From Tubiluchus corallicola (lineage: Eukaryota; Animalia; Priapulida), in the NCBI GenBank assembly GCA_030141605.1, contig JAQGDQ010001374.1, positions 1-43,982 on the forward strand: a stretch of DNA of 43,982 nucleotides, read 5' to 3'. Below, in pieces: positions 7,791 to 35,754 of this stretch (position 1 is the stretch's first letter; every line of letters starts with the position of its first letter). The notes under the pieces were generated by a model. That model saw only the letters and a list, made by a program, of their open reading frames with translations, made no database searches and was not told the DNA's origin. Made by a program: the position numbers and the translations under genes.

Positions 7791-8493
7791 AATAATAGAA
7801 ATGTGATTGTGCACTTAAAGACAATAAATAAATAAGCAGCACTAAGTTCAACTATGTATTACTAAAAGTTGTTCAAACTTCTGTGCAGTTAATTATGTTT
7901 CGAAGTTCTACATCTGGTATTACTGCTATACTGCTATTTATTATGGGAAAACTAGATGTGACATGCTCAAACACGTCGTAGGCTAATTATTACCCAAGCA
8001 AAATCACTCCTGATACGATTAAAAAATAGATAGTAGATTAAAATAGATAAAATAGATTAAAAATACAATTAAAACTTAGTAACTTTAGCCAATGTGATGT
8101 TGATGATATACATTTTGCAGCAAATATATCATTCATTACGAGAAATGACAACGCATTATTTGTAGGCTATACATTAACCCAACAACTGTTTGTGGTGGGC
8201 TAGCTTTACTGCTGCAAACTAAGTAATGCTTTATCTATATAGAAACCGTGTATCTATCTACGGCATCACTATTCAGAAATAAACTTAGTTCTACAAGCAA
8301 ATGTGCAAGGAAGTTTGCAATACTGTGGTTTCCAGTAGTGTGCTCTCGATTAACTTTGCGAAGAAAGTGAAGAAACAACAAAAACGAAGAAAAAATTTAA
8401 GAATTCAGTTCATTTGTGCTAAAACACTGCCTTTCAGTCAGTGCGTAACGCATATATTTTGTTCTCGAGTAATTCGTAAACAATGTGACTTAC

Positions 8494-9277
8494 CAGAATG
8501 GCTGTCTAACGAAACTGCGGGAGGACGTCTTGGCTTCACTGGACAAGAAGTTCTTGGAGGAACAAACGGTAGTCGCTTCTGGCACTTGACCTTGGAGGAG
8601 CCTTCTGCGACAGGGTTTGGCGGTCGCATGTTAGACGATTTTGGAACGTGACCCGGCGGTGTACCGAGAGACTGCGCAATTGCCCCGCCGAGTTTCGCTT
8701 GGATTTCCTGTACCGACGTCTTCCTTTCTGGAGGTACTTCAGGTGGCAAGCTCCGTTCTTCAGACGCTAGACCTTTGGAAGGCGGTCCCAAATTGCCTCT
8801 GGATGGCAAACTCGGCGGCTGATGAAGTCTCGATGACGGTAAGTTAGGTCGTTGCGAAGAAGGGGTGGTTGTGGCAGAATCATAGTTGCTTTTTGCTCCT
8901 TGACTCTTCAGATGTTGTCTTGCGGGATGTGACGAAGCAATGTGACTGACATCCAGAGGTTGCCGTGAAGGGACACCAGGTGGCGGGCCTACACCATTTC
9001 TTGTCGCCCATCTATGAGCATCAGATGAAGTTCCTTGATTAATAACCTTATTTGGAAGTTTGGCAGCACTGCTGACGTCACTGGTAAAAGTTTTTGTACT
9101 AACAACAGGTCCGACGCCAGTTTGTACATGGCTTGCCGGAACAACGGGTTTCGGTTTTGACGCTATTGCCGGTTTATTGACACCAGCTTGTTTTGGATGA
9201 CTCTGATTCGTCGGTTTGGGGTTTGCACTGTTTTCCTGCTGCTGTTCGAACTTGTTCCGCAACGCGCTTACACCAGA
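8494..9277 (-). CDS. Large proline-rich exon of a FYB/ADAP/PRAM1-like adaptor protein
   Basis: Acceptor tttatttacag (CAG at 9280-9278) and donor gtaagt (8493-8488). N-terminal VSALRNKFEQ and C-terminal KRLPFVPPRTSCPVKPRRPPAVSLD recall FYB motifs (VKSLMAKF; KPLP...PPKPNRPPNVDL). Family call is from motif memory only. Confidence 0.65.
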
Positions 9278-10510
9278 CTGTAAATAAATGCACTTGTAAG
9301 TAAACAAACAGGAGAAGTGACCAGAAAGTAGATACGTCTGAATTTGCTTTATTTATTACATACTCGAATGGTACAGTACATATTAGTAAACGCTTAAAAT
9401 GTTCACATGGAAAACGACATAGTGTGCTTGCAAACCAAAACAGTCCACGAGTCAGCATAGTTAAAACTAAGTTATGGTGCTTCAAAGTAGAATGCATCAA
9501 AAATTTGGTCAAATGTCAATTTTTTCGACTTTTATATTTTTGCACCAGATTATCAAGAAAATGTTCAAAAAATGCTAAGAATATAATTTCATAACCCCAT
9601 ACGCACTTTTCTGTCTAGAAACTAGTACTACAATTGGTTGAAAAATTTGTGGTTTCAAACTCCAATAGTAGTTCGTGGAAGCAGTCATTTTGCTTCGGGT
9701 TTTTTTCTGTTTCCAAACCCAGATCTTTGTCAGGAAGAGCCATCTACTGGATTTAAATGTAACTTCAATGTGTTCTTGCAAAGTCCGTAGCAACCAGCAT
9801 TTGTGCGGTTACTAAATATTTTGCAGAAATGCAACAAAAAACAATGGTTAACTTTAACAGTAATTTTCTCAAGGTTATGTTTTTCAGTGTGCAGCCTGCA
9901 CCTCAACTCCTATGTGGATTATCTCAGCTTAGAAATAACATAGAGTGATGAACTTGGTATCAAAATGATCCTCATGAAATGGAGATTTAGGATATGTGAA
10001 TAACTAGAAAGGGTTTACTGCCGATTTATGGAAGATTTTGCTATGCAAGCATACCTAGCATAAACAGGTGCAAACAATGAGTGACATTAACGAGATTACA
10101 AGCATACAACACAAATAGAATTACACAGTAACACAATTATTCGAATAAAAGCAAATAAGAAATTATAATTACAAAACACTTACACAAACACATACGTCAT
10201 ACTAAACAAGTACAGAAAAAGGAGTTGTCAACAGTAGAAGGCATTACCTACGTGCCAGAAAAGAATTTAAGACAGTTAACATTTTTGCAGGAACAAACAT
10301 TCCAAAACCACTCCACACTTAGGCAGTGCAACAATTGGGTGAAAAATTTGCATTTTCAAACTCCAATAGTAGTTCCTGGAAGCGGTCATTTTGCTGTCAG
10401 TAATGCTGACAGAGACAAGTCCCAATAAAGCCTACTTTCTATATACTCTCCTTTGGTGGCCATCTTTTTATGGGTGTGCCAGTCTACCAATGATGCAGAA
10501 CTGCTTATAG

Positions 10511-15145: not shown

Positions 15146-15864
15146 AAAATATGTGTTGAAGAAGTGTGAACCGAGTGAAAAAATATGTGTTGAAGACGAG
15201 TGAACCGAGTGAAAAAATATGTGTTGAAGACGAGTGAACCGAGTGAAAAAATATGTGTTGAAGACGAGTGAAACGAGTGAAAAAATATGTGTTGAAGACG
15301 AGTGAACCGAGTGAAAACATATGTGTTGAAGACGAGTGAACCGAGTGAAAAAATATGTGTTGAAGACGAGTGAACCGAGTGAAAAAAAATGTGTTGAAGA
15401 CGAGTGAACCGAGTGAAAAAATATGTGTTGAAGACGAGTGAACCGAGTGAAAAAATATGTGTTGAAGACGAGTGAACCGAGTGAAAAAATATGTGTTGAA
15501 GACGAGTGAACCGAGTGAAAACATATGTGTTGAAGACGAGTGAACCGAGTGAAAACATATGTGTTGAAGACGAGTGAACCGAGTGAAAAAATATGTGTTG
15601 AAGACGAGTGAACCGAGTGAAAAAATATGTGTTGAAGACGAGTGAACCGAGTGAAAAAATATTAGTTGAAGACGAGTGAACCGAGTGAAAACATATGTGT
15701 TGAAGACGAGTGAACCGAGTGAAAAAATATGTGTTGAAGACGAGTGAACCGAGTGAAAAAATATGTGTTGAAGACGAGTGAACCGAGTGAAAAAATATGT
15801 GTTGAAGACGAGTGAACCGAGTGAAAAAATATGTGTTGAAGACGAGTGAACCGAGTGAAAACAT
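15146..15864. repeat. 34-bp minisatellite, about 21 copies, AATATGTGTTGAAGACGAGTGAACCGAGTGAAAA
   Basis: Directly visible; no spacers. Confidence 0.97.
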
Positions 15865-16859
15865 GTGACACGTAACCAAATGCTGTTCAATGGAATCCCC
15901 ACTACGGAAAAGACGTTAAGCTTCCACAGTCGACCTAGCCGATAAGAAATCCAGCTTCACTCACTCTAGCTGTTCAGTGACGGGAGTCGAGTTAGCCGAG
16001 ACTTTTGCCGCCTGCGAAGATTTTCGCTCAGGCAATAATCACGTGACACTGCAAATCACTGATTGAAATATGGCAAACGCATTGCGGATTTGCGGTCAGA
16101 TTGTGCGTGTGCGGGCAGAGATACTAAACTTAGCATCTTTAGGCAAAATTAAACGCAGCTTTGGTGTTATAGAGTAAGGATATCGGTGACGCTTTAGTTT
16201 CTCTGCGCATTAACCAACCACAGCACTCCTAATCTAATCCTGGTGAGACACACACTAGATTAATTATGTCTGTCTATCGAGTACAGCAGCATTGTCTACA
16301 TACCGCGGTTATATTGATCGACACGCGGTATATGTATTGATCGATTCACCTCTGAGTTTGTCTGTTTGGCGACATAACGAATATAGTTTACATAAGCACT
16401 CATCCTAGCATGACGTGGCGAGGGCGAGAAGCGAGGGTGGCGACTTAACGAGGTAAATATCAAAGCAGGAAATCCGTCCTGGTACTTTCTATGGCGAGAG
16501 ACGAGTTTGGCGGCATAACGAGGGGCGAGATAACGAGGCTAGACTGTACACACATAAGCAATATATATAAGCAAAGTTAGTCACATGTATGGGTTATTTT
16601 GGTACTGACTCATCTGTAATCAAGATAAGCCTCGCCAAGAGTTGGGTTTACATGATATTTGCAATTGTTTTTTATAATAATAAAAAAATGATCTCTAATG
16701 CATTATTTGAGTTTGTACAACAGCTTTTTTCTATGTATAAGCAACACAAATTTTTTTAAAAAATTTGGCTCCGTAATTTAACAGTTAACTAACAATTTAC
16801 CATTTATTTAGTTAACAAAAATTCGCAGCTTTAGCTGACTTAGCTGCTTGCCTCATTAA

Positions 16860-17968
16860 GCCAACTCAGCTGAAAAGTTAGTCAACCTCAGCCAAGCTAG
16901 CTGATTTACTATGTGAGTTAGCTGATGTAGTAGCGACTCACTCAACTTCAGCCAAGCTAGCTGATTTACTGCATGAGTCAGCTTATGTAGTAGCACCTGA
17001 CTCAGCTTCAGCCAAGCTAGCTGATTTACTATGCGGTCAGCTGATGTAGTAGGAACTGACTCAGCTTCAGCCAAGCTAGCTGATTTACTGCATGAGTCAG
17101 CTTATGTAGTAGCACCTGACTCAGCTTCAGCCAAGCTAGCTGATTTACTATGCGGTCAGCTGATGTAGTAGGAACTGACTCAGCTTCAGCCAAGCTAGCT
17201 GATTTACTGTGTGAGTCAGCTGATGTAGTAGCAACTGACTCAGCTTCAGCCAAGCTAGCTGATTTACTATGCGGTCAGCTGATGTAGTAGCATCTGACTC
17301 AGCTTCAACCAAGCTAGCTGATTTACTGCGCGAGTCAGCTGATGTAGTAGGAACTGATTCAGCTTCAGCCAAACTAGCTGATTTACTGTACGAGTCAGCT
17401 GATGTAGTAGCTACTGACTCAGCTTCAGCCAAGCTAGCTGATTTACTGTGCGAGTCAGCTGATGTAGTAGCAACTGACTCAGCTTCAGCCAAGCTAGCTG
17501 ATTTACTATGCGGTCAGCTGATGTAGTAGCATCTGACTCAGCTTCAACCAAGCTAGCTGATTTACTGCGCGAGTCAGCTGATGTAGTAGGAACTGATTCA
17601 GCTTCAGCCAAACTAGCTGATTTACTGTACGAGTCAGCTGATGTAGTAGCTACTGACTCAGCTTCAGCCAAGCTAGCTGATTTACTGTGCGAGTCAGCTG
17701 ATGTAGTAGCAACTGACTCAGCTTCAGCCAAGCTAGCTGATTTACTATGCGGTCAGCTGATGTAGTAGCATCTGACTCAGCTTCAACCAAGCTAGCTGAT
17801 TTACTGCGCGAGTCAGCTGATGTAGTAGGAACTGATTCAGCTTCAGCCAAACTAGCTGATTTACTGTACGAGTCAGCTGATGTAGTAGCTACTGACTCAG
17901 CTTCAGCCAAGCTAGCTGATTTACTGTGTGAGTCAGCTGATGTAATAGCAACTGACTCAGCTTCAGCC
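16860..17968. repeat. 59/60-bp tandem repeat, about 18 copies, with a 239-bp higher-order unit
   Basis: Unit CTGACTCAGCTTCAGCCAAGCTAGCTGATTTACTGTGCGAGTCAGCTGATGTAGTAGCAA; ORF track recurs at 17269, 17508 and 17747. Confidence 0.96.
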
Positions 17969-18038
17969 TCTACACATAATTAAATTACCAGTGCTAATGT
18001 CCAATAAATGACCAGTACTAATGTCCATCTTGTGAATT

Positions 18039-19079
18039 TTAACTCATCCAGTTATAACTGTATGTGCTCTGCCAAACTGGAAGGTATTCCATCAGTGGCG
18101 CACCTAGCAATGATAAGATGGGAGTACGCGACATGGCGCTCAGAAGTGATATGATTTTTCGTTTTGAAACTTTGTCAAAAAATGGAGATCGCGCGAAATA
18201 TAAAAATAACAGGATCGTGCGGCGTTGAACTTCGGTCTTCTCTTCGGCGGCCAAGTCCTTCGCTTGCCTAGTAAGTAGTACACTTAATACGTCCATGCCG
18301 CCAGCGACGAACCACGGTCTCCAAGAAGATTGACCGTAGATGATCATTGCGGACAGATGCGCAAGTGGACGGAGGACATGCAGATACTCTGCCGTCAAGC
18401 AACCACTCCTCTGAATGTAGTTCTCGTCCGTGGCGTTCGTCCGCTGCTGCCGATGATTCGTCGACTTTGGTAACTTCCAATCGCGGAACTGCAGTGGTGG
18501 CGCGGCGACTAACCTGCGCATCTCTCTACCCGACCGTTCCAAGAGGAACGTCGCCTCGACGGTGCCGTTTTCGCGCACTTGTCTCAAGCATTCTCCTCCG
18601 AGTAAACGCTCACGGTTCAGCGGTGCAATGGGTGGGTGAGGAACTACTTTTGACTTGTGAAAAACCAACAGGACCATCCGCAGTGCGGCTTTAACCAGCT
18701 GCAAGAGAACCACGATGATCCACTTGGCGCGGTCGCCTCCGAAACGTTTGAAGGACAATTCCAAGAACACTTCGACGTATTCTAGAATGGTAAGAAAGCG
18801 CTCTACTTTCTCTTTGTTTCCCGCTTGTGTGAGTAGAACTTTAGCGCGCTGCGACTCGCGCAGAATAGTGTCGTTGAGGAACACGAGCAGATTCGATGCC
18901 GAGTACACGAGCTCCGATAAAACCACCGATTCCTCAAACCTGCCAACCAGAACGTACGATATGCTCCGGAACACGGTCTCAAACGTCGTAACTACCTCCG
19001 GGTTGATCGCTACATAACTCTTGTACTTCTCGAATGCTTCCGCCAGACCAACCAAAAGTTGGTTTCCATTGTTGTTCAT
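18039..19079 (-). CDS. PEX16: Peroxisomal membrane protein / peroxin 16, intronless CDS, 346 aa
   Basis: YKSYVAINP..ETVFRSISYVLVGRF..S..LSELVYSASNLLVFLNDTILR, AEYLHVLRPLAHL, SWRPW, RSPFFD and C-terminal LMEYLPVWQSTYSYNW all match Pex16 family motifs. Confidence 0.95.
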   Translation of the reverse strand: MNNNGNQLLVGLAEAFEKYKSYVAINPEVVTTFETVFRSISYVLVGRFEESVVLSELVYSASNLLVFLNDTILRESQRAKVLLTQAGNKEKVERFLTILEYVEVFLELSFKRFGGDRAKWIIVVLLQLVKAALRMVLLVFHKSKVVPHPPIAPLNRERLLGGECLRQVRENGTVEATFLLERSGREMRRLVAAPPLQFRDWKLPKSTNHRQQRTNATDENYIQRSGCLTAEYLHVLRPLAHLSAMIIYGQSSWRPWFVAGGMDVLSVLLTRQAKDLAAEEKTEVQRRTILLFLYFARSPFFDKVSKRKIISLLSAMSRTPILSLLGAPLMEYLPVWQSTYSYNWMS

Positions 19080-19216
19080 GATTATTGATTATTTCTTGAA
19101 CACACAAGATCCAAATGCTACAATGCTACAAAGGTTTTTTATCGATTGCAAACTGTAAACTGTATCTCTCGATGGACAAAATGTATATGAAAACCGAAAA
19201 GGTAGCCAGCTAGAAA

Positions 19217-19309
19217 CTACAACACAGTTTTCCGAATGTTGGCGGCAACGTCTTGGAAGTAACACCCCTTAAATGACATCATCCGCACGTCTATTTCTCC
19301 TTCTTCTAG
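19217..19309 (-). CDS. DUF4787-like secreted Cys-rich protein, coding exon 3 (LEEGEIDVRMMSFKGCYFQDVAANIRKTVL*)
   Basis: Acceptor ttttcttttag; phase 0; LEEGEIDVR..SF.GC motif; not in the ORF track. Confidence 0.85.
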   Translation of the reverse strand, partial: LEEGEIDVRMMSFKGCYFQDVAANIRKTVL

Positions 19310-19414
19310 CTAAAAGAAAAAAATTTACAAGAGTGAAAGAGTTTCTAGTAGTATTGTAAGTATTTCGTTTAGTTGGTATTAAACTTAGCGTAAACAGTTG
19401 GAATTTATCCAATA

Positions 19415-19700
19415 AAGGAAAACCGGATTCTAAAGACTCAATCTAATTTTAATCTACAGTCCTAAATGCACATTTTGTTGCTTATAAAAGTTAGCAGTGG
19501 CTTCTAATATTTGAATAATTAGCTAGGAAAGTTAATTTACTGCAACCGGACAGTTATCGCTTACGTCACAACTAACCACAGTTCGGGCAATGGTAGACAT
19601 CTTAGCCGCACGTCAAGCACGTTTGTCTAAGAGAAGATTGCTATAAGACGCTGACGTGATGTCACGAAAATGAGCTGCACGCCACAGGCAAACACTTCTC
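19415..19700. mobile_element. Dispersed non-autonomous element, copy 1 of 3 (possibly Kolobok-like)
   Basis: Shares GCTTACGTCA(C/G)AA(A)CTAACC.CAGTT...TCAAGCACGT...TGATGTCA.GAAAA(A)TG with 25896..26416 and 32408..32892. Confidence 0.7.
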
Positions 19701-19752
19701 ACTTTGACACGAAAAAAGTTTTACCAATTTTGACTAACATCTCGTTACGAAC

Positions 19753-19890
19753 CTTGTCGTTAGCATAAAGTTCGTTGAAGCAATATTCGGACATACAGCG
19801 GCGACCGCACATGGACCGTTCGACTCCGACTAAGTTTCTGCACTTGGCTGATTGCTCACAATTGTATTGACTCTTCTTGAATTTCTGCTC
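19753..19890 (-). CDS. DUF4787-like protein, coding exon 2 (EQKFKKSQYNCEQSAKC...CGRRCMSEYCFNELYANDK)
   Basis: Acceptor ttcttacag, donor gttcgt; 138 nt, phase 0/0; C..RC.S..C...LY..D motif. Confidence 0.85.
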
Positions 19891-20123
19891 CTGTAAGAAT
19901 ATGAAACTGTTTGACAAATTATTATTATGATTATTATTATTATTATTATAACTCTTTATTGCTTGATCAACCAAGTTAATCTTATGAATTTTATAGTATT
20001 AGCATTACAGCTGTGTGAAAAATGCTGCATTATCCTTTAACACTTCTTTCGCAGCACCAGTAAAAATACATTTCATAATACGTATGTATTTTAATGAAAT
20101 AGGGACATATTAGGAAAACTTAC

Positions 20124-20255
20124 CTGGGGTTTCTTCTTCCTATATGGAAAATGTTTGTATTGATAAATCACCGGACTGTCTCCCTGACTGCAGAAGATGT
20201 GGTAGAACTCACATAACAAGACGAGAGAAAGAAAAACTGCAGCAAATCTGACCAT
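20124..20255 (-). CDS. DUF4787-like protein, coding exon 1 with signal peptide (MVRFAAVFLSLVLLCEF...RKKKPQ); full protein 120 aa
   Basis: ATG at 20255, CAG|gtaagt donor; the exon also has an upstream acceptor ttttctgcag (exon start 20303). Confidence 0.8.
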
Positions 20256-20815
20256 CTCCAAGGGAACTGCGAAGCCACTGACCACCGAGAGCTGTGAATA
20301 ATCCTGCAGAAAATTCTGAAAAAAGGCAGTAGAATTTACTTCACTCGATTCTTCACTTATGCTTTAGTATTGTCCAGAGGCATACCAGTAGTCTCAATAA
20401 AAATTATATATTAATGTTTTTTTTTTGTAATATTTGTAGTAATTTAATGCTTTTTGTAAAAATTATCATTGTATGCACATGGTAAATCTAGCAATAAATT
20501 CTAATTCTTTCTTGTGCCTTTTTACCTACTTTTCTATTAGTAGAAAAGTCTATTACTTTTCTATTATGCTATTTTTCCCGTGCACAGTTTATAAATGTAC
20601 ACTAGAGTGTTATATCGTTGTCATACACGAGCGCTCAAATAAGGGTAAGGAATGCTGCAGCATCTACAGTCACTTTAGATTCAGATTAGCTAATAAATGA
20701 GATGAACATAAAAACCCGAGAAATTTAATTAGAAAAATTCAGACCTACCTAGAGCACACTCAGCCGGTGTCAGTTTTTGTTACAAGCTTTTTTCCCGATA
20801 ATTTGTTTCTATATT

Positions 20816-20986
20816 TTACTGTTCCCACTTTAAAGGTTTGCGTTCGTCTCGCTCGGACAGCTGTCTCTTTGGATTAACAATTAAGCCAAACCTGCCCCAG
20901 TTTGCGTAAAAGTAATAAACTGCTGATGCTACTACTACACACAGGCCAGCTTTTCTAAAAAGGCTTAACTCATCCCAAAATTTCAT
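20816..20986 (-). CDS. Candidate 56-aa single-pass membrane microprotein MKFWDELSLFRKAGLCVVVASAVYYFYANWGRFGLIVNPKRQLSERDERKPLKWEQ
   Basis: Lies wholly in an exon-like block 20749..21009 (acceptor ccttaccttgcag, donor AG|gtaggt); one hydrophobic helix and a charged tail. Confidence 0.55.
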   Translation of the reverse strand: MKFWDELSLFRKAGLCVVVASAVYYFYANWGRFGLIVNPKRQLSERDERKPLKWEQ

Positions 20987-22294
20987 TGCAAAACATGTCA
21001 CACGTGATACTGCAAGGTAAGGAGTCTAGTAAATTAGTTCGCCGATTCAGGAGACTTTGTTTTCATGCTTACACAGTGGGAAAACCAAAAAAGTGATTTT
21101 TGCCTTATTACTTTTTATTAGTGGATAGTTATCTTTAAAATTGAAAGAAAGTAACAAATGTGCATGGATACACATCAAGTTCATAATAGAAACAAAATTA
21201 AATGCTCTTCTAACTGTGTAAATACTACCATCAGTCATGATCAATGTGAGCAAGCGGTTGCTCTCGAATCAAAAGCCGTGGACACTTTTGACTTCTGCGA
21301 GTTTCGAGTGGAAGATTCGATTTGGAGAGGATTCATGGGTCTTCTCTAGAGAACCTTTGAAAATGAGACCTGTAGCGAACTTTATAATAACGCTTACACG
21401 GCAGATGTTGTCCGCTTCATAAGTTTATAGTAATAAGTGCATTGTTAGCTCAAGGAATTAGGAATGGGCTTTAAAATTCAGGCATGACATGATACAGGTA
21501 GGTAGGGCATGTCTTGAATAATATACTTCTAAAAGTCTTTGACGAGGTACTAGAAGTTGGGGGTGCGGATGGCTAGTATACACGCTGATAAAAGCAACTC
21601 GCTAACATGTGATGGTATTAGAGGTTATGAAAAGAGGTGAAACAAGCAAAACAAACATTGTGGGTGCGGGCTAAAAACACAGATTTACAGACAGGTTAGG
21701 TGGGATACCACCCTCATGGTAGAAACAACAGAGGGTGCTAGGGCTCGGAAATAGTTGATTCTTTATACTTGTATGGGACGGTGGGTAGCAAGTGAGTGTA
21801 GTAGTGTTTGCTTCACAGCCCAGCACATTGCGCTCCAGCAATGCAGTATTTTCCTGTTTTGTGCATGTGGCTATGCTCACATGTCTAAGATAACACGCTG
21901 TATGCTGCACTGCTAGTGTCTGGTGCTAGGTAGAGAAATCACTGTCACTCACACAGTTTGTCAGTTATCGTGCTTAAAAGCATTTTGCTATCATATTCTT
22001 GAATTGCAGCAATTTAGGCTATTCGTAAGCAAAAAAATTTTTATTTATAAATTTTTGTGTTTTTTCTTTTAAAATCACAATTACAATTTACCACATTAAA
22101 ATTACATATGTTTGTTTTGTTTTATGGAATATTAAAACAATGGCTAAAATTTTCTGAAGTAGGACCCCCACTAATGTGAGCCACATGTGTCTACTGTAGT
22201 TTGACAATCGAAACTTTGATATTTTTTCATTTTAGATCATTTCCTAAATAAAACTTAACATTTTGTTTATAGATTAGATTATGAAGTCACGTAC

Positions 22295-22472
22295 TTGCAA
22301 GAAGCTGCTGGTGTAATGTGAACCTTCACCATATCCTGGGATTGTAAAAAGTCGACACGAAAATGACGCGAAACGTCAAAAATTTTTTTTCACACATTTT
22401 AGCCGTCGTGATTGCCTTGTTTACTTCCGCAAACTTTGTATTCGGCTCCTGGAAAACCGATCCACATAAATG
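22295..22472. promoter_or_regulatory. Putative bidirectional promoter with divergent first exons
   Basis: CpG-enriched patch between a minus-strand donor-like site (gtacgt, 22294-22289) and a plus-strand ATG|gtgagt (22470-22478), lying between two divergent genes. Confidence 0.45.
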
Positions 22473-22676
22473 GTGAGTTTCTTCCAACATCTGCATCCAT
22501 TACTCAACAGCAGACCCTAATCCATGTGCATGTGGTCTGGCAGCAGAAGCTGAATTTAGCTCATTATTGCGTATGTCGCAGGGATAAGAATTTTCTGCGG
22601 ATACGCGGAATTCCGAGTTTTCGGAAGACCAGTAGTGCCATTTTTGTAAATCGTGTAAATTCGTTGAGAAAATTTT

Positions 22677-22890
22677 TACGGACCCAGTACATTATTTCAC
22701 AAGCTGACCGCTAGTTGGCAGGCCGTCACTTTGTTTACATCACGTACATCAGTGTAACCATGTGTATATCTCTATGTATAAAAATATAGAATCAATTGTG
22801 CGGAGTTATTTGAGTCAATTGCAGACAGTTTTTATATACTTTTGCATAGGAGCGGCCAGTACTTAGGCATTTTTGAGAAAATTAGGTATC
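22677..22890. mobile_element. Dispersed repeat; inverted diverged copy at about 31095..31320
   Basis: GGCCGTCACTTTG, GTCAATTGCAGACAGTTTTT and CATTTTTGAGA.AATTAGG occur as reverse complements in the second locus. Confidence 0.7.
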
Positions 22891-23784
22891 ATGTATCCTT
22901 GATAGTTGGGTATTTTAAATTATGCACGAAACAAGGTACCTGCTATTTCAAGTCCACGTAGAGGCTCTCTATAATCACAAAATTGCAATTTGTTGCTGGC
23001 TCCAAGGGGGCTTTGCTCCGCTTGAACCCACATGGGGGCCTACGTGGCCCCCAAACCCCCGGCCTGTTTGTGTTTTTTGCAATTTCTCATTCTCATCCCT
23101 GGTACGTCATCGTCGTCATTTGCTGCTACGTTCTAAGAAAACTCTTAACGTTCTAAACCTCTCTCAGCTTTTTTGTTGGTTCAAGAGTTTTACGCAATGC
23201 TATAGGAAGAGGAGAGTCTGTTCATTTTTTGTTTGTTTATTTATTTCACATCAACACAAATACACAATTAATACATTAAAAGAAACAAAAAGTTATCAAT
23301 AATTCAATGAATAACAAACAAAGATACATAATAGGAAGCAAATTTTGGAAAAAAATGATTTAAACTGTCTTTAGACGTAGGTCAACCTATGGTAAACAAA
23401 GATAGTGATATCGCTACTTCCTTTAATACTGGTGTCTAAACAACGTTATGTACAGCATCATTACAAATATACTAAGTTGACTTGCAAAACACTGTGGGGT
23501 TGAAAGATAAACAAGAGAATTATCGCTGTTGTATGTTGCTTAGTAAATTCGTCTTAAGGTAATCTTAGTGCATGTTCAGTCCAATGCAATCTTCTTACTT
23601 GTATAATTACTGATAAGAAACACAAAGATGTTTTATAGCATAAAACTTAATTGAGTGGCTTATATTAGAAATTTTAACGTGTTACAATGTTTTTGGGTTT
23701 AAGGATCCTTAATGATTAATGTTTAAAGATCATAATGGTTCATTAAAATAAAGAAATTTTATTATGTAAATATTTTGTTGCCTA

Positions 23785-24228
23785 CCGTATTTTCCCATGT
23801 ATAAGAGACCCTTGTGTATAAGAGACCCCTTCAATTTTTAGGCAAAAATTCTGGAAAAAAGTTTTTTTGGTAATGAATAACTTTATTCATCATAGAAATC
23901 ATTAAATTAAGCAGAGAGCTTATGCAGATGCATTGATTGGCTGCAGAACAATCGATTTCTCTCCAATACCAAAGATACATTTAAAAAAATAATAACTTAC
24001 CCGGTACATTAATTTTATCATTAGAATTTAGCCATGGAGAAGATTTATTGAAAGGAAACTATAATTATTCGAAATAAAACAGTTGTAGAGCACTTATTTC
24101 TTTAAAATCACTAGTGTCACAATTTATGCATCTTATTGAAAAGACTTACTCCCATGTATAAGAGACCCCCTATTTTTAAAGTGAAAATTCTGAGCAAAAA
24201 AGGGTCTCTTATACACGGGAAAATACGG
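23785..24228. mobile_element. Tc1/mariner-superfamily (CCGTA-ended) MITE
   Basis: 27-bp TIR CCGTATTTTCCC(A/G)TGTATAAGAGACCC with TA on both flanks; internal TGTATAAGAGACCCC subrepeats. Confidence 0.9.
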
Positions 24229-25510
24229 TATATTTCATAAATTACAAAATTAAAAACGATTTTGCTCAAGTAAATTCGAGCATGGTTTGATATTTCGATT
24301 GATTGGGCCCGGAGACCCTGAAATGTCACAGTTTTCAGCACTGAAGGTGTGCCCTATATTGCTGTGAGATGCAGGTCACAAACTGTTTTGTAAACGAAAT
24401 TTTTGAACTTCATTTGAGCTTAATTTGAACTATTTTAGCGAAGATTTTTCAGCGATTTTTGACATCTAGGAGAAAAGAAAGGTTAATTGGATGAACGCTA
24501 GTAAAACCTCGGAAAAGTGGTACTGAAAATTATCCGAAATATCAGCTATTTAATAAATTCGCCAAAACCGAAAGTGCAATTATCCGTGAACCAAACCAAA
24601 AATTTCGTTTTGGTAACATCCCTGCAGTGCGTATTGTTTATTTGTGAAGCCAATGATCTTAAAGGATCAGAAAAGGGATACCTGAAGTAGGTTTCAGAAA
24701 AATTGCCTTAAAAATTATATCACTTTATGCATATATCTTACTCGCGTTGAAAGAAGTTTCTGTTCATTTTCATTTTAAATCTCCCGCAATACTGTTCTGA
24801 CAGCGCCATTACATGACGTCACTTACGCACAACATGAATCAGGTGAAGAAAAGGAAATGTTAAATTATGCCCCAAAAAACTTTCCATGCAAATCTGTATT
24901 ACTTAGCATTTCACTTATCTGCTCTAATAATAATTTAGAATGTTCGTGCCCATTGGTAAAATGCACCACTCTCACTAACCAAAAACATATTTTTAATCTT
25001 ATTGGCAAGATACAGTAATATTTGAATATTTGCTCAGTTGGGGACATGTTGCACCACAAATGCTCTGAACACTCATTAAGTACACGTTTAAATAAAAGTT
25101 TAAAGTGCATTTTTTAACTTGACAAGCAGTTACTCACATATAGAACCCAATGGCATCGCAGATAAACGCCGTTTTGCATACTTTCTTTGCATTTCGTGGC
25201 GCTTTAAAACTGCGTCTCTGCATTCTCTTTAAACTGGGAAGTCATTTTTTGGCTCCTTAAGTTTTAATTTCGTGCAAAATAGCTGCTACTCTGCAAATTT
25301 GCATGTATAAAAAGCACAATCAGTTTATCTGCTGATTAGGCATTAGTTGTCATGTTGTTTACTAAAGACAGTTGTTATCCAGCTTGGGCTGCTGTCCCGA
25401 ATGCTGCTGGCAGAGCTTACATCACATCATTACAGCATTAAATGAGAAAACTTTGTATGCGTTTTACATCACAATTATATATTACCTTTGACTTTAATTA
25501 ACTTTGCTAA

Positions 25511-25820
25511 TATAGGTTTTACACCTCAAATGTAGACACAGGAAAGTTCAAATGTGACTTAGGTAAGTCAAATGTAGACATACGAATTTCGAATGTGTTT
25601 TGGTAACTCAAATGTGACTTAGGTAAGTCAAATGTAGATGCATTACTTTGAATAAATCGGTAATTAAGTTATTTAAGTGCAAATTACAAAAAGATAAACC
25701 AAAGACAGTGCATCTATTAGGCCTATAACGTTGTTATTTTAACTTAGGAGCAATTATTAAATTGAAGTTTGAGTTACCTAAATCTACATTTGAGTCCACA
25801 TTTGACATGTAAAACCTATA
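25511..25820. mobile_element. MITE with TATAGGTTTTACA...TGTAAAACCTATA ends, copy 1
   Basis: Terminal inverted repeats and 60-bp internal subrepeats; inverted second copy at 27919..28268. Confidence 0.88.
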
Positions 25821-25895
25821 TTTTGTTAGATAATTTTATTTTGTCACTAATCTCACGGAATCAATTAATTTTAGGAAATTTGTATTAATGTCAGT

Positions 25896-26416
25896 TAAAG
25901 GAAGACCGGACGATTGTTTAGACTCAATCTCATTTTAATTTACTGTCCAAAATATACATTTTCTTGCCTATAAAAGTGAGCAATAGTTACTTATATTTGA
26001 ACATTTAGCTTAGAAATTTAATTAGCGGCAACCGAACACAGCTATTGCTTACGTCAGAAACTAACCACAGTTTGTGCAATGACAGGCATCTTCCCTTGCG
26101 CGTCAAGCACGTTTGCATAAGTGTTACTGTTTAAACGCGTGATGTCAGGAAAAATGGGCTCTACATCATATGACGTCAGAAACTAACGCTGAAGTTCACG
26201 ATCATGCTTATTACGGTACCATCTTATATTTGTCGGTCACGCGAACGCCACAAAAAGGCGCCTTTGCCAATCTTAGTAGATTCACTGAGCCGCGCGTAGC
26301 TTTGAAAGTTTAACGAAATTTGAGTATCCGAGGTAATTGTTGTTTAATCTAAGCTTTGATGTAAAAAAAGCTATTGTAGTTTTCAGTATTTTATAGCATT
26401 CTTTACTCTGAATTAA
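25896..26416. mobile_element. Dispersed element, copy 2 of 3 (TTAA at both apparent ends, possibly Kolobok-like)
   Basis: Similar to 19415..19700 and 32408..32892; begins TTAAAGG. Superfamily uncertain. Confidence 0.65.
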
Positions 26417-26980
26417 TGTTTACACAATCATCCGATTTTTCTTTAAAATGATAATGATAATACAATGCTACCATAGCTATACTGTAAATGTTAAAAGTGA
26501 CTTGTAAATACTGTTAACTGTTACAGCCCTGCAAATAGAAGGCCATTGTATATATATATATGCTCAAAATAAAGAGTTATAATAATAATAACTATGATAA
26601 TTACATCACAGCGGAGACAGAGTGATGGACGAATATGCTTGACAGCAAAAATTTGCCTTGCACATTTTTTCTGCCATACGCATGATAAAGACATTTTATC
26701 TAAGTTAGTTGTTTAGTGTTTATCGTAAACATTTTGCCTGGTCCTGTGTTTGCATTCATGCATGTTTATGTGCCAGCAACACATGAGAGCTTATCTAGAG
26801 CTTGTTTATGTGCCAACAAGACATGAGAGCTTATCTAGAGCTTTGTAGTTCACAGTTCACATTGCATGCTTAGCTGGGGTTGTATTACATGTTTAACGTA
26901 TGCAGGATGAAACCGTTCTATCGTTTTGTTTCTAATCAATGCATTATTTCAGGCTTGCAAAAGGCGGATTGTGTTGGACA

Positions 26981-27147
26981 ATGCTGAACGCAAAATTTCT
27001 GCTCTTCCTTCTCATCGTTGCTCTGTTCTCCTACTCGTACGGAGGCTTCCGGAAGAAGGCAAACATCATTTCAGTGAAAGTTTTTGACCACAAAGGCAGT
27101 TCTGATGACGGCCTTCCCGCTGAAGATACAGTCTTCAAGTCAAACTA
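26981..27147 (+). CDS. PGGHG: PGGHG/ATHL1-like GH65 glucosidase, first coding exon with signal peptide (exon starts 26953)
   Basis: MLNAKFLLFLLIVALFSYSYG signal-like peptide; ..DTVFKSN TA|gtaagc joins in phase 2 to 29067, giving VFKSNYLP. Confidence 0.75.
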
Positions 27148-27384
27148 GTAAGCGTTTATCGGTCATCGGTGTTTTAACCGGTTTTGGGTTACCTACCGGT
27201 GCGGGCGTGGTTCAGTTTACTATCCTGGGCATCCGCTGGGGAGCCCCCTGGATCAGCCCTCCAGACCTACGGTTCATTCAGAAAGTAATCGAAGGATTTG
27301 GTTTGCAGACATTTGCAGGTTTTGTTCCTTAATAGCTTTTCTAAAGTGTAAGAAGCAGAAAATTGAATCATTTAATCACGTTTT

Positions 27385-27905
27385 TTTCCTGTTCAAAAAC
27401 GCTCATTGAAAATGATTTTTCCGAATGAAAACTTTGAAAATGCTCTCATTTTGGCCAATCTTCAACACCTTTATTTAACCGAAAATTCTTGCAAAAAGTT
27501 GTTCTTATTAATTGAAAATTGTAATAATAAAATCCACACTCTGTTGCCAAATGCTCATACTCATAGATATAGTACATGCCACCATGTGAAAGACCCCTTA
27601 CCTAGATGCAGAACAGAGAGATTCAAGAGACAGTTTTGCCCTATATGGTTTATTTAATTTCTAAACATAGGTTTTAATTTTTCTTTTTGATTTATTTCAT
27701 TCTTGTAAAAGTGTAATAGTGTTTGTCACTGTATGTTCTATCTTGTTTATGCTTTAAAAGTTTTATATTTTGTAATTTTATAATTTGCTGTAATTCAAAC
27801 TTTTGGTTGTAATGATGATCATTTTTTATCTGATTTGCAGTGATTTTTTCTGATTAATTTTCTATTTTAATCAATTTCTTTTTTATGTTTACTGGTAATA
27901 AATTA
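27385..27905 (+). mobile_element. Degenerate LINE 3' fragment (L2/CR1-group ORF2 C-terminus)
   Basis: VQKRSLKMIFP...ALILANL...HTLLP...PRCRTERFK motifs, T-rich UTR, AATAAA near 27897. Confidence 0.75.
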
Positions 27906-27918
27906 GTTCTTTATATAT

Positions 27919-28268
27919 TATAGGTTTTACACGTCAAATGTAGATTTAGGTAATTCAAATGTGGCTTGGTAGCTCAAATGTAGACTTTGGTAGTTCAAAT
28001 GTGTTAACAATGGTTTTCAACAAATCTTGAGCGTTTTTGGTAAGTCAAATGTAGACACCTGTCAAGTCAAATGTCCTATGTCTACATTTGACTTACCTAA
28101 GTCACATTTGAGTTACCAAAACACATTTGAAATTCCTATGTCTACATTTGACTTACCTAAGTCACATTTGAGTTACCAAAACACATTCGAAATTTCTGTG
28201 TCTACATTTGACTTACCTAAGTCACATTTGAACTTTCCTGTGTCCAGATTTGACGTGTAAAACCTATA
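27919..28268. mobile_element. MITE with TATAGGTTTTACA ends, copy 2 (inverted relative to copy 1)
   Basis: TIRs and 60-bp subrepeats TCTACATTTGACTTACCTAAGTCACATTTG. Confidence 0.88.
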
Positions 28269-28780
28269 GTGTTGCTCCACATATCCGATGTGTATCCGAA
28301 AATGGTGATATTCGCGAGATTTTGCAGATATTCGTATCCGACATTATCCGGTAGTTATAAAAATTTGATATTCGCAAATATTAGCTATCCAGTTATCGTA
28401 ATGTGCAGCTGAAAACGGTTTTCGAATAATTTAACAGCCGAAAATAAATAAATAAATTATTACCAAAAATTTAGAGATTGTTTTAGCCTATGTTTGTGTT
28501 TTCATGTCGAGAATTTTGCGCACCTTTTTTTGTTTGCGTGTGGCAATATGGTGTATCTTCGCATAGGGTCCTTTAAGATGATAGTCTTTTTTTTGACAGA
28601 CTAAATGAAAATCCTAATATTTGCAAACATTTACTATTTTCATTGTCCGAACAGATCTGCATATTCGATTCGAATTTACGTAACCTATCCGGTTATATTC
28701 CTAGTCCAGAAGTCAATCTGAGGAAATATTCGATGATATCCGGTATTCGCTATCCCGCAAAAAAGTGCAGAGCAACACTG
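28267..28780. mobile_element. hAT-like non-autonomous element abutting the MITE
   Basis: Ends TAGTGTTGCTC...GAGCAACACTG; internal TATCCG/TATTCG subterminal motifs; TSD not clean. Confidence 0.6.
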
Positions 28781-29066
28781 TATATATATATTCCCGATTT
28801 AAAAAAATATTTTAGATTATTTTTTATCTTGGGGACATATAAAATGCAGATTTTTTTAAATTTATTGCTTCAAAATTTTTTCAGCATAGCTTACTGGCAT
28901 GAGAAACTCGGGGTTGTGAGTTCAACTCATGAATTGGCATAAAGTTTCAAAGCTCCTTTTTTCTCCTTGCGATTAAGTAACTTTCGAGCTGATGAGCTGG
29001 TTTCGATTCTTAATCTCTCAGTTTTGAGTAATTAATTATTCATCAGATTTTATTTTTCATTCTCAG

Positions 29067-29275
29067 TTTGCCGCTTGAATTGGAACGGCACATGGCGACA
29101 GTCGGTAACGGCTTCCTTTCCACTGTCGTTTACTGGAATAGGATATTTGTGAACGGAGTTTATAATGGTGCTAAGGGTAGAAGTCACCGTGCCCGCATCC
29201 CGGCTACCTGTTCACTCCGCCTGTCTGTGGATGGTTGCGCACTAACATCTAATTACGAACTAGACGTGGGCAGAG
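29067..29275 (+). CDS. PGGHG: PGGHG/ATHL1-like GH65, coding exon 2
   Basis: MATVGNGFLSTVVYWNRIFVNGVYNGAKGRSHRARIP matches the PGGHG N-terminus (ATV.N..LGT.V....L.V.GVYNG..G.THRA.LP); acceptor cattctcag, donor gttagc. Confidence 0.9.
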
Positions 29276-29498
29276 GTTAGCATCTTAGTTAATTTAGTAA
29301 TAAATAAATTGTATTATGTAAGCACATATTATATGCCAGAGTAAATGGAATCCAGGTAAAAAAAGTCCCAGGTAAAAAAGCCACAGCATAGAGTTACAGT
29401 GAAAAAATCACAGGTAAAAAGTCACAGAAAACAGTCACAGGAAAGCGTCATAGGTAAAAAGCTGTGCAATATGTGGTGGGTCGGTGACTGTTCATTGG

Positions 29499-29800
29499 AT
29501 GTTGTTGTTGTTGTTGCTGTAGTTGTTGTTGTTGCTGCTGCTCTTGTTGTTGCTGTTGTTGTTGTTGCTGCTGTTGCTGTTGTTGTTGCTGTTGTTATTG
29601 TTGTTATTGTTATTGTTGCTGCTGCTGTTGCTGCTCCTGTTGCTGTTGTTGTTGTTGTTGTTGTTGTTGTTGCTGCTGCTGCTGCTGCTGTTGCTGCTCC
29701 TGTTGTTGTTGCTGCTCCTGTTGCTGTTGTTGTTGTTGTTGTTGCTGTTGCTGCTCCTGTTGTTGTTGTTGTTGTTGTTGTTGCTGCTGCTGCTATTGTT
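29499..29800. repeat. (GTT/GCT)n trinucleotide microsatellite
   Basis: Directly visible; source of the poly-L, poly-V and poly-T ORFs. Confidence 0.97.
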
Positions 29801-30189
29801 ATAACTCCTTTATTACATGTACATACATGCACATTTAATTCCCTCTCTATTTAAGAATATCATTTTATGGTTCCACTTATATATATTAGTTGATTAACAT
29901 TGTGACGTCATATATGATAACATATTTGCATTTAGAAAATCATTATTCTTGTTTCAAAACTATTACTAGTCATGCAAGTCAAATGGGATTGTGTTATTTT
30001 AGATAAATGTGCCTCAGTGAATAGCAACAAGGTTTTTTACATTGACAGCTCCTTTGCGATTAATTCTTTTACTGGTCAAAAAGAATTTCATAATATACAC
30101 TAACGTCTCGTCATCACATGCCGGACAAAAGCGGGGAGACTTCGGTCCAAATTTGCCGATTGTCCATATTTTCCGATGCTAAGCTAATG

Positions 30190-31130
30190 TAATACTAGTA
30201 TGCGCCATTTATTAGACTCACAGTAATGTAGAAACAATCGCCTACTTGTCTCAAATATGTCTAGTATGCGCCATCTATTAGACTCACGGTAATGTAGAAA
30301 CAATCGCCTACTTGTCTCAAATATGTCTAGTATGCGCCATCTATTAGACTCACAGTAATGTAGAAACAATCGCCTAATTGTCCAAAAAATGTCTAGTATG
30401 CACCATCTATTAGACTCACAGTAATGTAAAAACAATCGCCTAATTGTCTAAAAAATGTCTAGTATGCCCCATCTATTAGACTCACAGTAATGTAGAAACA
30501 ATCGCCTACTTGTCTCAAATATGTCTAGTATGCGCCATCTATTAGACTCACAGTAATGTAGAAACAATCGCCTAATTGTCTCAAAAATGTCTAGTATGCG
30601 CCATCTATTAGACTCACAGTAATGTAGAAACAATCGCCTAATTGTCTCAAATATGTCTAGTATGCGCCATCTATTAGACTCACAGTAATGTAGAAACAAT
30701 CGCCTAATTGTCTCAAAAATGTCTAGTATGCCCCATCTATTAGACTCACAGTAATGTAGAAACAATCGCCTAATTGTCTCAAAAATGTCTAGTATGCCCC
30801 ATCTATTAGACTCACAGTAATGTAGAAACAATCGCCTAATTGTCTCAAAAATGTCTAGTATGCCCCATCTATTAGACTCACAGTAATGTAGAAACAATCG
30901 CCTAATTGTCTCAAAAATGTCTAGTATGCCCCATCTATTAGACTCACAGTAATGTAGAAACAATCGCCTAATTGTCTCAAAAATGTCTAGTATGCGCCAT
31001 CTATTAGACTCACAGTAATGTAGAATCAATCGCCTAATTGTCTCAGAAATGTCTAGTATGCGCCATCTATTAGACTCACAGTAATGTAGAATCAATCGCC
31101 TAATTGTCTCAGAAATGTCTAGTATGCGCC
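30190..31130. repeat. 66-bp minisatellite, about 14 copies
   Basis: Unit CGCCTAATTGTCTCAAAAATGTCTAGTATGCGCCATCTATTAGACTCACAGTAATGTAGAAACAAT; 22-aa periodic ORF. Confidence 0.96.
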
Positions 31131-31536
31131 ACCCTTATGCAAAGGTATAGAAAAACTGTCTGCAATTGACACAAATAATTTCGCATAATTAACTCCACTT
31201 ACACACGCTGATACTTAAACACACTGACATAAGTGTCGTTGCGTGCTGCTTGGATGTGAACAAAGTGACGGCCATCCAACTAGCTGTCAGCTGGCAAAAT
31301 AACGGACTGTGTCCGTAGTGTGCGGGACTTTCTAACTGACCAGATTTTGTCCGATTCTTCCGATTGTCGTAAAAGCGAGATCCGGCAAACCGAGACATGA
31401 GTGTATAATTTAGGCCAATTAGGCTTAAAAGTCCCTCCCTGCTTTTATAAGTGTCTCTGAGCTCCATAAATGATGCCATCTGGGATTTGCACATTACCTA
31501 GTGAGGTTATCCCTAACTAAACTGTGTCATCTAGAT

Positions 31537-31996
31537 CAGGGGTGTGCAAATTGCGACCCGCGAAGAGATTTGTCAACCTAATGAAAGTGCGGCCCGGGCG
31601 ATTAATTGAGTGTATCCAGCTGAAGTCCGTGCCACAATCCCAAAGATAGTGCGGGTAGTTTTTTCTACTAGATCGGATGCCATTAATCCTTACAAGATGG
31701 TTGTAGCTTAATGTCACTGTACTACACAGATTGTGTGATACACATTACTAATATGCATTGTAATGAAATTACCACTATCTGTCCTGAAAGTAGAAATATA
31801 TGGTTTGTAATATAAATTTTAATAACTTCTAAAATAGTTTCTTGAGTGTAGTAGTAATGATGTACGCAGGTCGGATGCAAAAAAATCGTTATTAGGCCTT
31901 TCTGTACTTGGCTCCTTGGTCAAACTGCCTGTGGCCCGCAGGAATTGTGGGAAAGTTTAATGTGGCCCGGCTAGTCTGATAATTTGCACACCCCTG
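31537..31996. mobile_element. hAT (Charlie-like) MITE, longer copy
   Basis: TIR CAGGGGTGTGCAAATT; perfect 8-bp TSD ATCTAGAT (31529-31536 and 31997-32004), matching the NTCTAGAN target preference of Charlie elements. Confidence 0.93.
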
Positions 31997-32111
31997 ATCT
32001 AGATGTTCTTGCCGAACGTACGACTTAAATTGGAAATTTTTGTCTCAAACGGCCGTTCCCGTTATCGTTGCACGTCTAAAGTTGCTTAATGAGTGTTTTG
32101 TGTGTTTCCAG

Positions 32112-32228
32112 GAGTATTTACGGAACATATGTCTCATCCCGATGTGTACATTCGGTATGAAATCTACGCCCATCGTGAGAATACGTCACTTTTAATCTGC
32201 ACTGTTAAAGCTAACGTATATAAAAAAG
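32112..32228 (+). CDS. PGGHG: PGGHG-like, coding exon 3 (GVFTEHMSHPDVYIRYEIYAHRENTSLLICTVKANVYKK)
   Basis: IYAHR motif; acceptor gtgtttccag, donor gtgagt; phase 1/1. Confidence 0.88.
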
Positions 32229-32407
32229 GTGAGTTTTGCTGATTACCAAACTATTTTGTGGTTGACTCGGCTTCTAGAGCACAGGGTTCGATTCCTGTAT
32301 TAATTATTTTAATTTTTTTCTGTATAGTCTGGTGATTGTAAGTTTTTCCAGCTGTAATTGATTAGCTAGATAATCCGACATTTTGTATAGTTTTGTTTGA
32401 GATCATT

Positions 32408-32892: not shown

Positions 32893-32895
32893 GTG

Positions 32896-35685: not shown

Positions 35686-35754
35686 GCGGGATGCTCACAC
35701 TGTACCTCGACACTAGGCGGAGGAGCTGCACAAGGCAGCCAATGGCTAGAGGGC

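What the first reader, a model, noticed from the sequence alone, without database searches (positions are those of the whole stretch)
18039..22360. Candidate tricistronic animal transcript: 56-aa membrane microprotein, DUF4787-like protein, PEX16
Seen: three same-strand ORFs with no evident room for separate transcription units. Exon 21009..20749 carries a complete 56-aa ORF and ends in a donor; the next acceptor (20303) opens the exon with the DUF4787 ATG. The DUF4787 stop (19217) lies only 137 nt from the PEX16 ATG (19079). On the minus strand that gap has no AATAAA/ATTAAA and no AUG, and an in-frame TAA 10-12 nt before the PEX16 ATG excludes a fusion protein. The gap does have a pyrimidine-rich tract and several YAG sites (gatacag, tttacag, ctttgtag). 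Established: polycistronic mRNAs are rare in animals, apart from operons resolved by spliced-leader trans-splicing. Inference: one promoter near 22.3 kb drives all three cistrons, resolved by trans-splicing, reinitiation or alternative cis-splicing of the 5' exons to an acceptor in the gap.
Basis: partly seen in the sequence, partly recalled or inferred. Interest (0 to 1): 0.85.

Follow-up and report, generated by a model that had tools for sequence, protein, structure and literature searches.

The report
PEX16 tucked behind a DUF4787 gene
In an unidentified invertebrate, an intron-free peroxisome gene (PEX16) starts 137 bases after the end of a small spliced gene (DUF4787), so the two likely share a messenger RNA, a known arrangement in flies and humans, but no RNA data were available and the proposed third, upstream mini-protein is unproven.

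Summary
The anatomy is real. An intact single-exon PEX16 (346 aa, Pfam 6e-91) starts 137 nt after the stop of a three-coding-exon DUF4787 gene (120 aa), and the exon upstream holds a 56-codon ORF. The gap holds a variant signal (GATAAA), and its acceptors are weaker than the gene's own. The full mRNA would put 11 AUGs before PEX16. CpG depletion stops at exon 4, and intron 4 leaves room for a second start, though most of it is a high-copy repeat. The 56-aa ORF has no homologue in any search. No genome or informative RNA run was available. Most likely: a fly-type dicistronic locus, with PEX16 made mainly from a shorter mRNA sharing DUF4787's last exon (0.4). The full one-promoter tricistronic claim is about 0.2. 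FlyBase lists 159 dicistronic and 7 tricistronic loci. The scan noted similar layouts (other gene pairs) in other genomes, not this pair.

The parts
22295..22360 (-). Putative first exon (start site unknown), with an AUG at 22332 that would open a 25-codon uORF overlapping the start of the 56-codon ORF
   Evidence: Inferred: donor CAA|GTACGT at 22294, CpG o/e 1.46 at 22201-22400, uORF from the spliced model. No RNA support.
20749..21009 (-). Putative exon 2 (261 nt)
   Evidence: CAG acceptor and TAG|GTAGGT donor; ATTAAA at 20729 just inside the next intron
20816..20986 (-). 56-codon ORF with one moderately hydrophobic stretch: uORF or orphan microprotein, unproven
   Evidence: Sequence; KD19 1.36; chance 1-2.4% per 261 nt, shuffles 1.5% and 0.15%; no Pfam, no real homologue, ESM Atlas best 0.86
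20124..20303 (-). Exon 3: 48 nt of leader, DUF4787 ATG at 20255, hydrophobic N-terminus (likely signal peptide)
   Evidence: Acceptor TTTTCTGCAG, donor CAG|GTAAGT; KD19 2.06 at residues 4-22
19753..19890 (-). Exon 4, DUF4787 coding
   Evidence: PF16029 positions 1-46, E 4e-10; ESM Atlas nearest clusters are DUF4787 (0.85-0.88)
19413..19696 (.). Interspersed high-copy repeat filling 284 of the 443 nt of intron 4
   Evidence: 79% matches at 25896-26121 and 32496-32689; diverged deep contigs in run X1
19217..19309 (-). Exon 5 coding part of DUF4787, behind the best acceptor of the locus; its two in-frame AUGs (19282, 19279) would form a 20-21-codon uORF on any mRNA entering at exon 5
   Evidence: PF16029 positions 47-63; 13 of 17 pyrimidines and 33-nt AG-free zone; isoform models
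19080..19216 (-). 137-nt gap: no AUG, no canonical poly(A) signal, variant GATAAA at 19143 followed by a GU-rich stretch, weak YAG sites, no unusual fold
   Evidence: (fold z = +0.4)
18039..19079 (-). Intronless PEX16 coding sequence, 346 aa, CpG-rich
   Evidence: PF08610 E 6e-91; 89% to P0001 and about 41% to named animal PEX16; CpG o/e 1.30
16888..17968 (.). 60-nt tandem array (18 copies) behind PEX16; the first canonical AATAAA on the minus strand follows at 16808

Best explanation
An intact, intron-free PEX16 gene begins 137 bases after the stop codon of a spliced DUF4787 gene on the same strand; the DUF4787 mRNA likely runs on through PEX16 (a dicistronic mRNA of the kind known from Drosophila), while most PEX16 protein is likely made from a shorter mRNA that shares DUF4787's last exon. 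Steps shown: the ORFs, their identity, the splice signals, the AUG-free gap, the lack of a canonical poly(A) signal until 16808. Steps inferred: (1) PEX16 lost its introns, probably as a retrocopy that landed in the DUF4787 3' end; (2) transcripts from about 22.3 kb often pass the weak GATAAA signal and end behind PEX16; because PEX16 has no introns, the DUF4787 stop lies in the last exon and the long mRNA would escape junction-dependent decay; (3) PEX16 is read from an mRNA that enters at the strong exon 5 acceptor, from a second start in exon 4/intron 4 or by skipping exons 2-4, which leaves only short uORFs and an AUG-free 137-nt run-up; (4) the 56-codon ORF sits in the DUF4787 leader and is about as likely a regulatory uORF as a real microprotein.
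For: Pfam identity and exon continuity. No AATAAA/ATTAAA between 19216 and 16809 outside the PEX16 CDS. Both spacers are AUG-free: 137 nt (8% by chance) and 115 nt (613 of 5197, 12%), as expected for scanned leaders; this places the PEX16 leader over the DUF4787 3' end. The five-exon mRNA has 11 AUGs before PEX16, two in strong context; the exon 1-to-5 form has 3. Exon 5 has a stronger acceptor than any YAG in the gap (13/17 pyrimidines and 33-nt AG-free zone against 7-10/17; four of five gap YAGs have another AG within 4-6 nt). CpG o/e is 1.27 over 18039-19900 against 0.59 over 20124-22250 (CG:GC 120:105 against 42:92, p 5e-5; still p 3e-5 without the repeat); only 2 of 235 outside 1041-nt windows reach 1.30, both near 28.0-29.1 kb. 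In fly only 45 of 159 dicistronic loci are exclusively dicistronic and the 3' gene's own mRNA usually comes from a downstream promoter (PMC4528330 section 6). Other PEX16 genes are split by introns (2 of 3 metagenome loci).
Against: Every statement about transcripts is inferred; none was seen. Lack of a canonical signal in the gap is a 73% event, and GATAAA plus a GU-rich stretch could end DUF4787 mRNA there. [quoted passage not shown] The promoter-like motifs of intron 4 lie mostly in a high-copy repeat, whose copy at 25.9 kb keeps CpGs as well (12 and 11 of 18 sites, against 6 of 18 at 32.5 kb). The motif TTTTCGTG shared with 22.36 kb occurs 3 times against 1.6 expected. The 3' UTR would have to cross a 1.1-kb tandem array or use a variant signal (AGTAAA repeats in the array).
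Confidence: 0.4

Rival explanations
1. Two ordinary overlapping genes: DUF4787 mRNA ends in the gap at the GATAAA signal, PEX16 has its own promoter in exon 4, intron 4 or exon 5, and bridging mRNA is negligible.
For: GATAAA at 19143 with a GU-rich stretch about 30-45 nt downstream; CpG-rich domain covering exon 4 to the PEX16 stop; 11 AUGs block scanning on the long form; 443-nt intron plus exon 5 give room.
Against: GATAAA is a weak variant (recalled, not tested) and one of 12 variant hexamers occurs in 66% of control stretches (3367 of 5116); 284 of 443 intron bases are a repeat; the CpG step has another reading.
Confidence: 0.25
2. Obligate polycistronic mRNA: one promoter, one five-exon mRNA, two or three proteins made by leaky scanning, reinitiation or internal entry.
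For: Both spacers AUG-free; 137 nt lies in the -34 to 319 nt range of exclusively polycistronic fly loci (PMC4528330); human RPP14/HsHTD2 is a functional bicistronic mRNA with the second ORF in the 3' UTR (PMC4705651 passages); no intron follows the DUF4787 stop.
Against: 11 upstream AUGs, a strong-context DUF4787 start and a 120-codon ORF that likely carries a signal peptide; reinitiation after a long ORF is inefficient (established knowledge); the 56-codon stop has three junctions more than 50 nt downstream, a decay trigger if it is well translated; no unusual structure in the gap (z +0.4).
Confidence: 0.2
3. Spliced-leader operon: a polycistronic pre-mRNA is cut in the gap and a leader is trans-spliced onto a YAG before PEX16 (and possibly onto the exon 2 or 3 acceptors).
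For: Spacing is close to the roughly 100-bp intercistronic distance of Caenorhabditis operons (PMC7986045 passages); a variant poly(A) signal and YAGs lie together in the gap.
Confidence: 0.1

Closest known systems
Drosophila dicistronic and tricistronic loci (FlyBase release 6.04; PMC4528330, section 6 read whole, other passages, supplements searched except file 1)
   Same: Unrelated same-strand CDSs with a short stop-to-start distance; small ORFs over-represented; the 3' gene often has its own mRNA from a downstream promoter or an alternative splice.
   Different: Those loci rest on cDNA, RNA-seq and TSS data; here none. 'Pex' and 'CG3947' (fly Pex16 identifier, recalled) had no occurrence in the 12 supplement files searched, so this pair is not shown to be conserved in fly.
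Human RPP14 / HsHTD2 bicistronic mRNA (PMC4705651, passages)
   Same: A roughly 120-aa upstream CDS followed by a longer, unrelated, conserved housekeeping CDS in its 3' UTR.
   Different: Different genes; both proteins are shown to come from one mRNA there; here the upstream product likely enters the secretory route and the downstream one is a peroxin.
SL-resolved operons of Caenorhabditis, Ciona and Oikopleura (PMC7986045, passages)
   Same: Intercistronic distance of the order of 100 nt.
   Different: No strong trans-splice acceptor in the gap; no SL RNA shown for this organism.
Insect tricistronic mRNA read by context-dependent scanning (Kanamori et al. 2010; seen only as a title in the reference list of PMC4705651)
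   Same: Three ORFs on one animal mRNA without trans-splicing.
   Different: Not read; here the second start is in strong context and 11 AUGs precede the third ORF.

Membership tests
PEX16 (PF08610) | Full-length match above the curated cut-off, intact frame | tested here: met
   305.8 bits against cut-off 25, profile 1-347; aligns end to end with animal PEX16
DUF4787 (PF16029) | Match above the curated cut-off, continuous across exons | tested here: met
   Exon 4 40.1 bits (cut-off 27), positions 1-46; exon 5 23.3 bits, positions 47-63
Dicistronic locus (FlyBase sense) | Two non-overlapping protein-coding CDSs on one strand with short spacing | tested here: met
   137 nt, different frames, in-frame stop before PEX16
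Dicistronic locus (FlyBase sense) | A processed mRNA spanning both CDSs | not testable with these tools
   No RNA holder listed; run X1 covers only repeats
Dicistronic locus (FlyBase sense) | Both proteins translated from that mRNA | not testable with these tools
   Needs Ribo-seq or reporters; sequence shows 11 upstream AUGs
Tricistronic locus | The first ORF is a conserved or translated protein-coding gene | tested here: inconclusive
   No Pfam, three repeat artefacts only, no candidate, ESM Atlas under 0.9; ORF 1-2.4% by chance. Short ORFs are poorly covered by these collections.
SL trans-spliced operon | Strong unpaired acceptor just before the downstream start | tested here: inconclusive
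   Five YAGs, all weaker than the four cis acceptors by pyrimidine count; the organism's own trans-acceptor consensus is unknown
SL trans-spliced operon | SL RNA gene and leader-bearing reads in the organism | not testable with these tools
   No genome, no RNA; Rfam scan of 16-24 kb only, three chance-level hits
Retrogene | Intronless copy of a gene that has introns elsewhere | tested here: met
   Single ORF here; split PEX16 in L002 and L003
Retrogene | Parental intron-bearing copy, poly(A) remnant or target-site duplication | tested here: inconclusive
   No poly(A) run behind the stop by reading; parental copy not searchable without the genome; in-place intron loss is not excluded

The most novel reading that the evidence does not exclude
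One promoter makes a single three-cistron transcript for an orphan membrane microprotein, DUF4787 and PEX16, and it is resolved by spliced-leader trans-splicing or read by successive reinitiation, in a lineage (priapulid-like by unchecked scan notes) for which the searches here listed no report of operons. Intron-free housekeeping genes riding in the last exon of small genes would then be a recurrent way invertebrates build operon-like units.
Probability: 0.15. Interest if true: 0.65.

Novelty: new member of a known kind. Interest (0 to 1): 0.3.

Why it matters
If the bridging mRNA is real it adds a new gene pair, in a poorly sampled animal lineage, to the known class of animal dicistronic loci, and warns that one-ORF-per-transcript annotation will drop DUF4787 or the small ORF. 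It would matter more only if RNA shows trans-splicing or obligate three-cistron translation. As it stands it is a tight gene pair whose transcript structure is untested.

Tried and rejected
No genome is held for this window, so no parental PEX16, SL RNA or genome-wide promoter and acceptor model could be sought. No RNA holder listed; the one listed run, X1, gave only diverged repeat contigs on 16000-24000 and 25500-43900, so it says nothing on expression. Metagenome scans: 79 pattern matches, none confirmed; 3 loci of 184 matches with the alignment, none with a DUF4787 or 56-aa match better than E 0.09; they are distant organisms with little upstream DNA, so this is no test of synteny. DUF4787 exon 4 search: no candidate among proteins of 54-174 aa. 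56-aa ORF: three hits among 1.84 billion representatives, all tandem-repeat proteins; no candidate among 30-98 aa proteins; ESM Atlas leads (OapA_N, plant SDH8, CEBPZOS, SMIM20; 0.83-0.86) below the 0.9 mark. Fusion or stop read-through rejected: different frames and an in-frame TAA. Structured internal-entry element: gap folds no better than shuffles. Rfam: nothing. Shared TTTTCGTG motif as promoter evidence: 3 seen, 1.6 expected, one inside the repeat. Terminal inverted repeats of the intron-4 element: none clear. Pfam scan of 79 other ORFs of 58+ codons: only LRR_4 near its cut-off, no divergent neighbour gene near 22-32 kb. Scan notes: no look-alike stretch in other genomes and nothing nearby. 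Paper searches: PEX16+bicistronic 4 listed, none on such a locus by title and abstract start; DUF4787 0; priapulid+spliced leader+trans-splicing 3 listed, none on priapulids by title and abstract start; Priapulus+spliced leader 0; dicistronic/retrogene/intronless 13 listed, none on this layout by title.
Full report
What is there. Read on the minus strand, the locus holds an uninterrupted 346-codon ORF at 19079..18039 that matches Pfam Pex16 over the whole profile (E 6e-91). Its closest relative is an unnamed protein, P0001, 89% identical and of equal length (37 of 346 positions differ, mostly conservative), then named animal PEX16 proteins at about 41% (best 120 of 329 listed), so the gene is intact and conserved. 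Upstream lies a spliced DUF4787 gene: ATG at 20255 in exon 3 (20303..20124), exon 4 (19890..19753, profile positions 1-46) and exon 5 (from 19309, positions 47-63), 120 aa with a hydrophobic N-terminus, stop ending at 19217. The 137-nt gap has no ATG and no AATAAA/ATTAAA; the two frames differ and a TAA stands four codons before the PEX16 start, so no fusion. Exon 3 begins at a clear acceptor 48 nt before the DUF4787 start, so an upstream exon is needed; 21009..20749 has fitting splice signals and a complete 56-codon ORF. A first exon ending at 22295 is inferred from a donor and a CpG peak only.

How much is more than chance. Controls were overlapping stretches of this window on both strands, tandem repeats masked (11313 of 43982 bases) and the locus left out. 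No canonical poly(A) signal: 3716 of 5116 (73%). Three or more YAG: 3735 of 5116 (73%). No ATG: 417 of 5116 (8%); for the 115-nt spliced spacer between the 56-codon stop and the DUF4787 start, also AUG-free, 613 of 5197 (12%). A complete ORF of 56 or more codons in 261 nt: 56 of 2346 (2.4%), with equal hydrophobicity 24 of 2346 (1.0%); 1.5% and 0.15% in 2000 dinucleotide shuffles of the exon. The exon was chosen after the fact, so these figures overstate the case.

(a) The gap has a variant signal, GATAAA at 19143, followed by a GU-rich stretch; GATAAA itself occurs in 6% of control stretches but one of 12 variants in 66%. (b) The gap YAGs have 7-10 pyrimidines in 17 positions and four of five have another AG within 4-6 nt, against 11-13 and 10-33 nt for the four cis acceptors; the exon 5 acceptor is the best of them. 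A short PEX16 mRNA would more likely enter there than in the gap. (c) The five-exon mRNA has 875 nt and 11 AUGs before PEX16, two in strong context; an exon 1-to-5 form has 296 nt and 3 AUGs, all opening ORFs of 13-21 codons that end 137 nt or more before PEX16. (d) Intron 4 is 443 nt, of which 284 are a repeat with 79% copies at 25.9 and 32.5 kb and deep diverged contigs in run X1. (e) CpG o/e is 0.59 over 20124-22250 and 1.27 over 18039-19900 (p 5e-5; p 3e-5 without the repeat; PEX16 codon-aware excess z 2.9, while two LRR exons and two duplicated exons are depleted). That fits a second, unmethylated start region. [quoted passage not shown] Methylation is predicted for Priapulus caudatus (PMC8821070 passages), but that this genome is priapulid-like comes only from unchecked scan notes and was not tested here. 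(f) ATTAAA at 20729, just inside intron 2, could give the 56-codon ORF its own short mRNA.

The 56-codon ORF. No Pfam family at E 1; three hits among 1.84 billion representatives, all tandem-repeat proteins; no word-sharing candidate; ESM Atlas neighbours are small single-pass proteins at 0.83-0.86, a level shuffled sequences often reach. Its hydrophobic stretch is modest (1.36), its start context is moderate, two upstream AUGs precede it, and its stop has three junctions more than 50 nt downstream. Short ORFs of rare lineages are poorly held in these collections, so the blanks do not exclude a real microprotein. I put it at about 0.4.

Evidence that could not be had. No genome, no RNA holder listed, and X1 covers repeats only. 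Metagenome scans gave no close locus and three distant PEX16 loci without DUF4787; two are split by introns, which supports intron loss or retroposition here, and L001 is an uninterrupted frame on a 1268-nt contig that may be a cDNA.

How it most likely works. The simplest reading that fits all of this is the commonest type of fly dicistronic locus. FlyBase lists 159 dicistronic pairs, seven tricistronic and two tetracistronic sets, 2.5% of genes; only 45 of 159 are exclusively dicistronic, and the 3' gene's own mRNA usually comes from a downstream promoter, sometimes from an alternative splice (PMC4528330 section 6). Here the DUF4787 mRNA likely often passes the weak signal and ends behind PEX16; since PEX16 has no introns, no junction follows the DUF4787 stop, so the long form would be tolerated (inference from the established junction rule). 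PEX16 is likely translated mainly from a shorter mRNA sharing exon 5. I give this 0.4, two independent overlapping genes 0.25, an obligate polycistron read by scanning or reinitiation 0.2, an SL operon 0.1.

Comparison and novelty. It works like fly dicistronic loci and human RPP14/HsHTD2 (PMC4705651 passages); membership needs a spanning mRNA, which was not testable. The pair itself was not found in print in the searches made, nor among scan notes; the scan did note the same layout with other genes in other invertebrates, unchecked leads that suggest the layout recurs. Verdict: observation largely right, interpretation unproven and less unusual than stated; new member of a known kind; interest 0.3.

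Noticed in passing
P0001 and window 17980-19309: P0001's contig is 1327 nt; in the window the distance from the exon 5 acceptor to the start of the downstream repeats is about 1330 nt. If that contig is RNA-derived, a break at the exon 5 acceptor would hint at several upstream exons. The DNA was not seen; this may be coincidence.
   Followed up: no
window 20724-20729 (-): ATTAAA about 20 nt inside intron 2 followed by a U/GU-rich stretch: possible intronic poly(A) site giving a monocistronic mRNA for the 56-codon ORF.
   Followed up: partly
window 19413-19696, 25896-26418, 32414-32895: Interspersed repeat family of about 500 nt, high copy by X1 contigs; the 32.5-kb copy has lost more CpGs (6 of 18 kept) than the other two (12 and 11 of 18). 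Class not determined.
   Followed up: partly
window 35755-36316 and 38172-38668: Duplicated block at 93-94% identity holding a coding-like exon without a Pfam match; the second copy overlaps the start of the LRR gene's first ORF.
   Followed up: no
window 38591-39862 (+): Two-exon gene for a likely surface protein: hydrophobic N-terminus, leucine-rich repeats (LRR_4 E 3e-5), Ser/Thr-rich stalk, hydrophobic C-terminus.
   Followed up: no
window 8438-9352 (-): Long proline-rich open frame without a Pfam match; looks like an exon of a signalling adaptor (impression, untested).
   Followed up: no
window 7231-7665 (+): 144-codon frame resembling the C-terminal part of a LINE reverse transcriptase (recalled resemblance; no Pfam hit).
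   Followed up: no
window 19724 and 19702 (-): Alternative donor-like sites just after the weak exon 4 donor (AAG|GTTCGT); their use would truncate DUF4787.
   Followed up: no
window 15146-15861 and 16888-17968: Tandem arrays of 34 nt (21 copies) and 60 nt (18 copies, with 179/239-nt higher order) directly behind PEX16.
   Followed up: no
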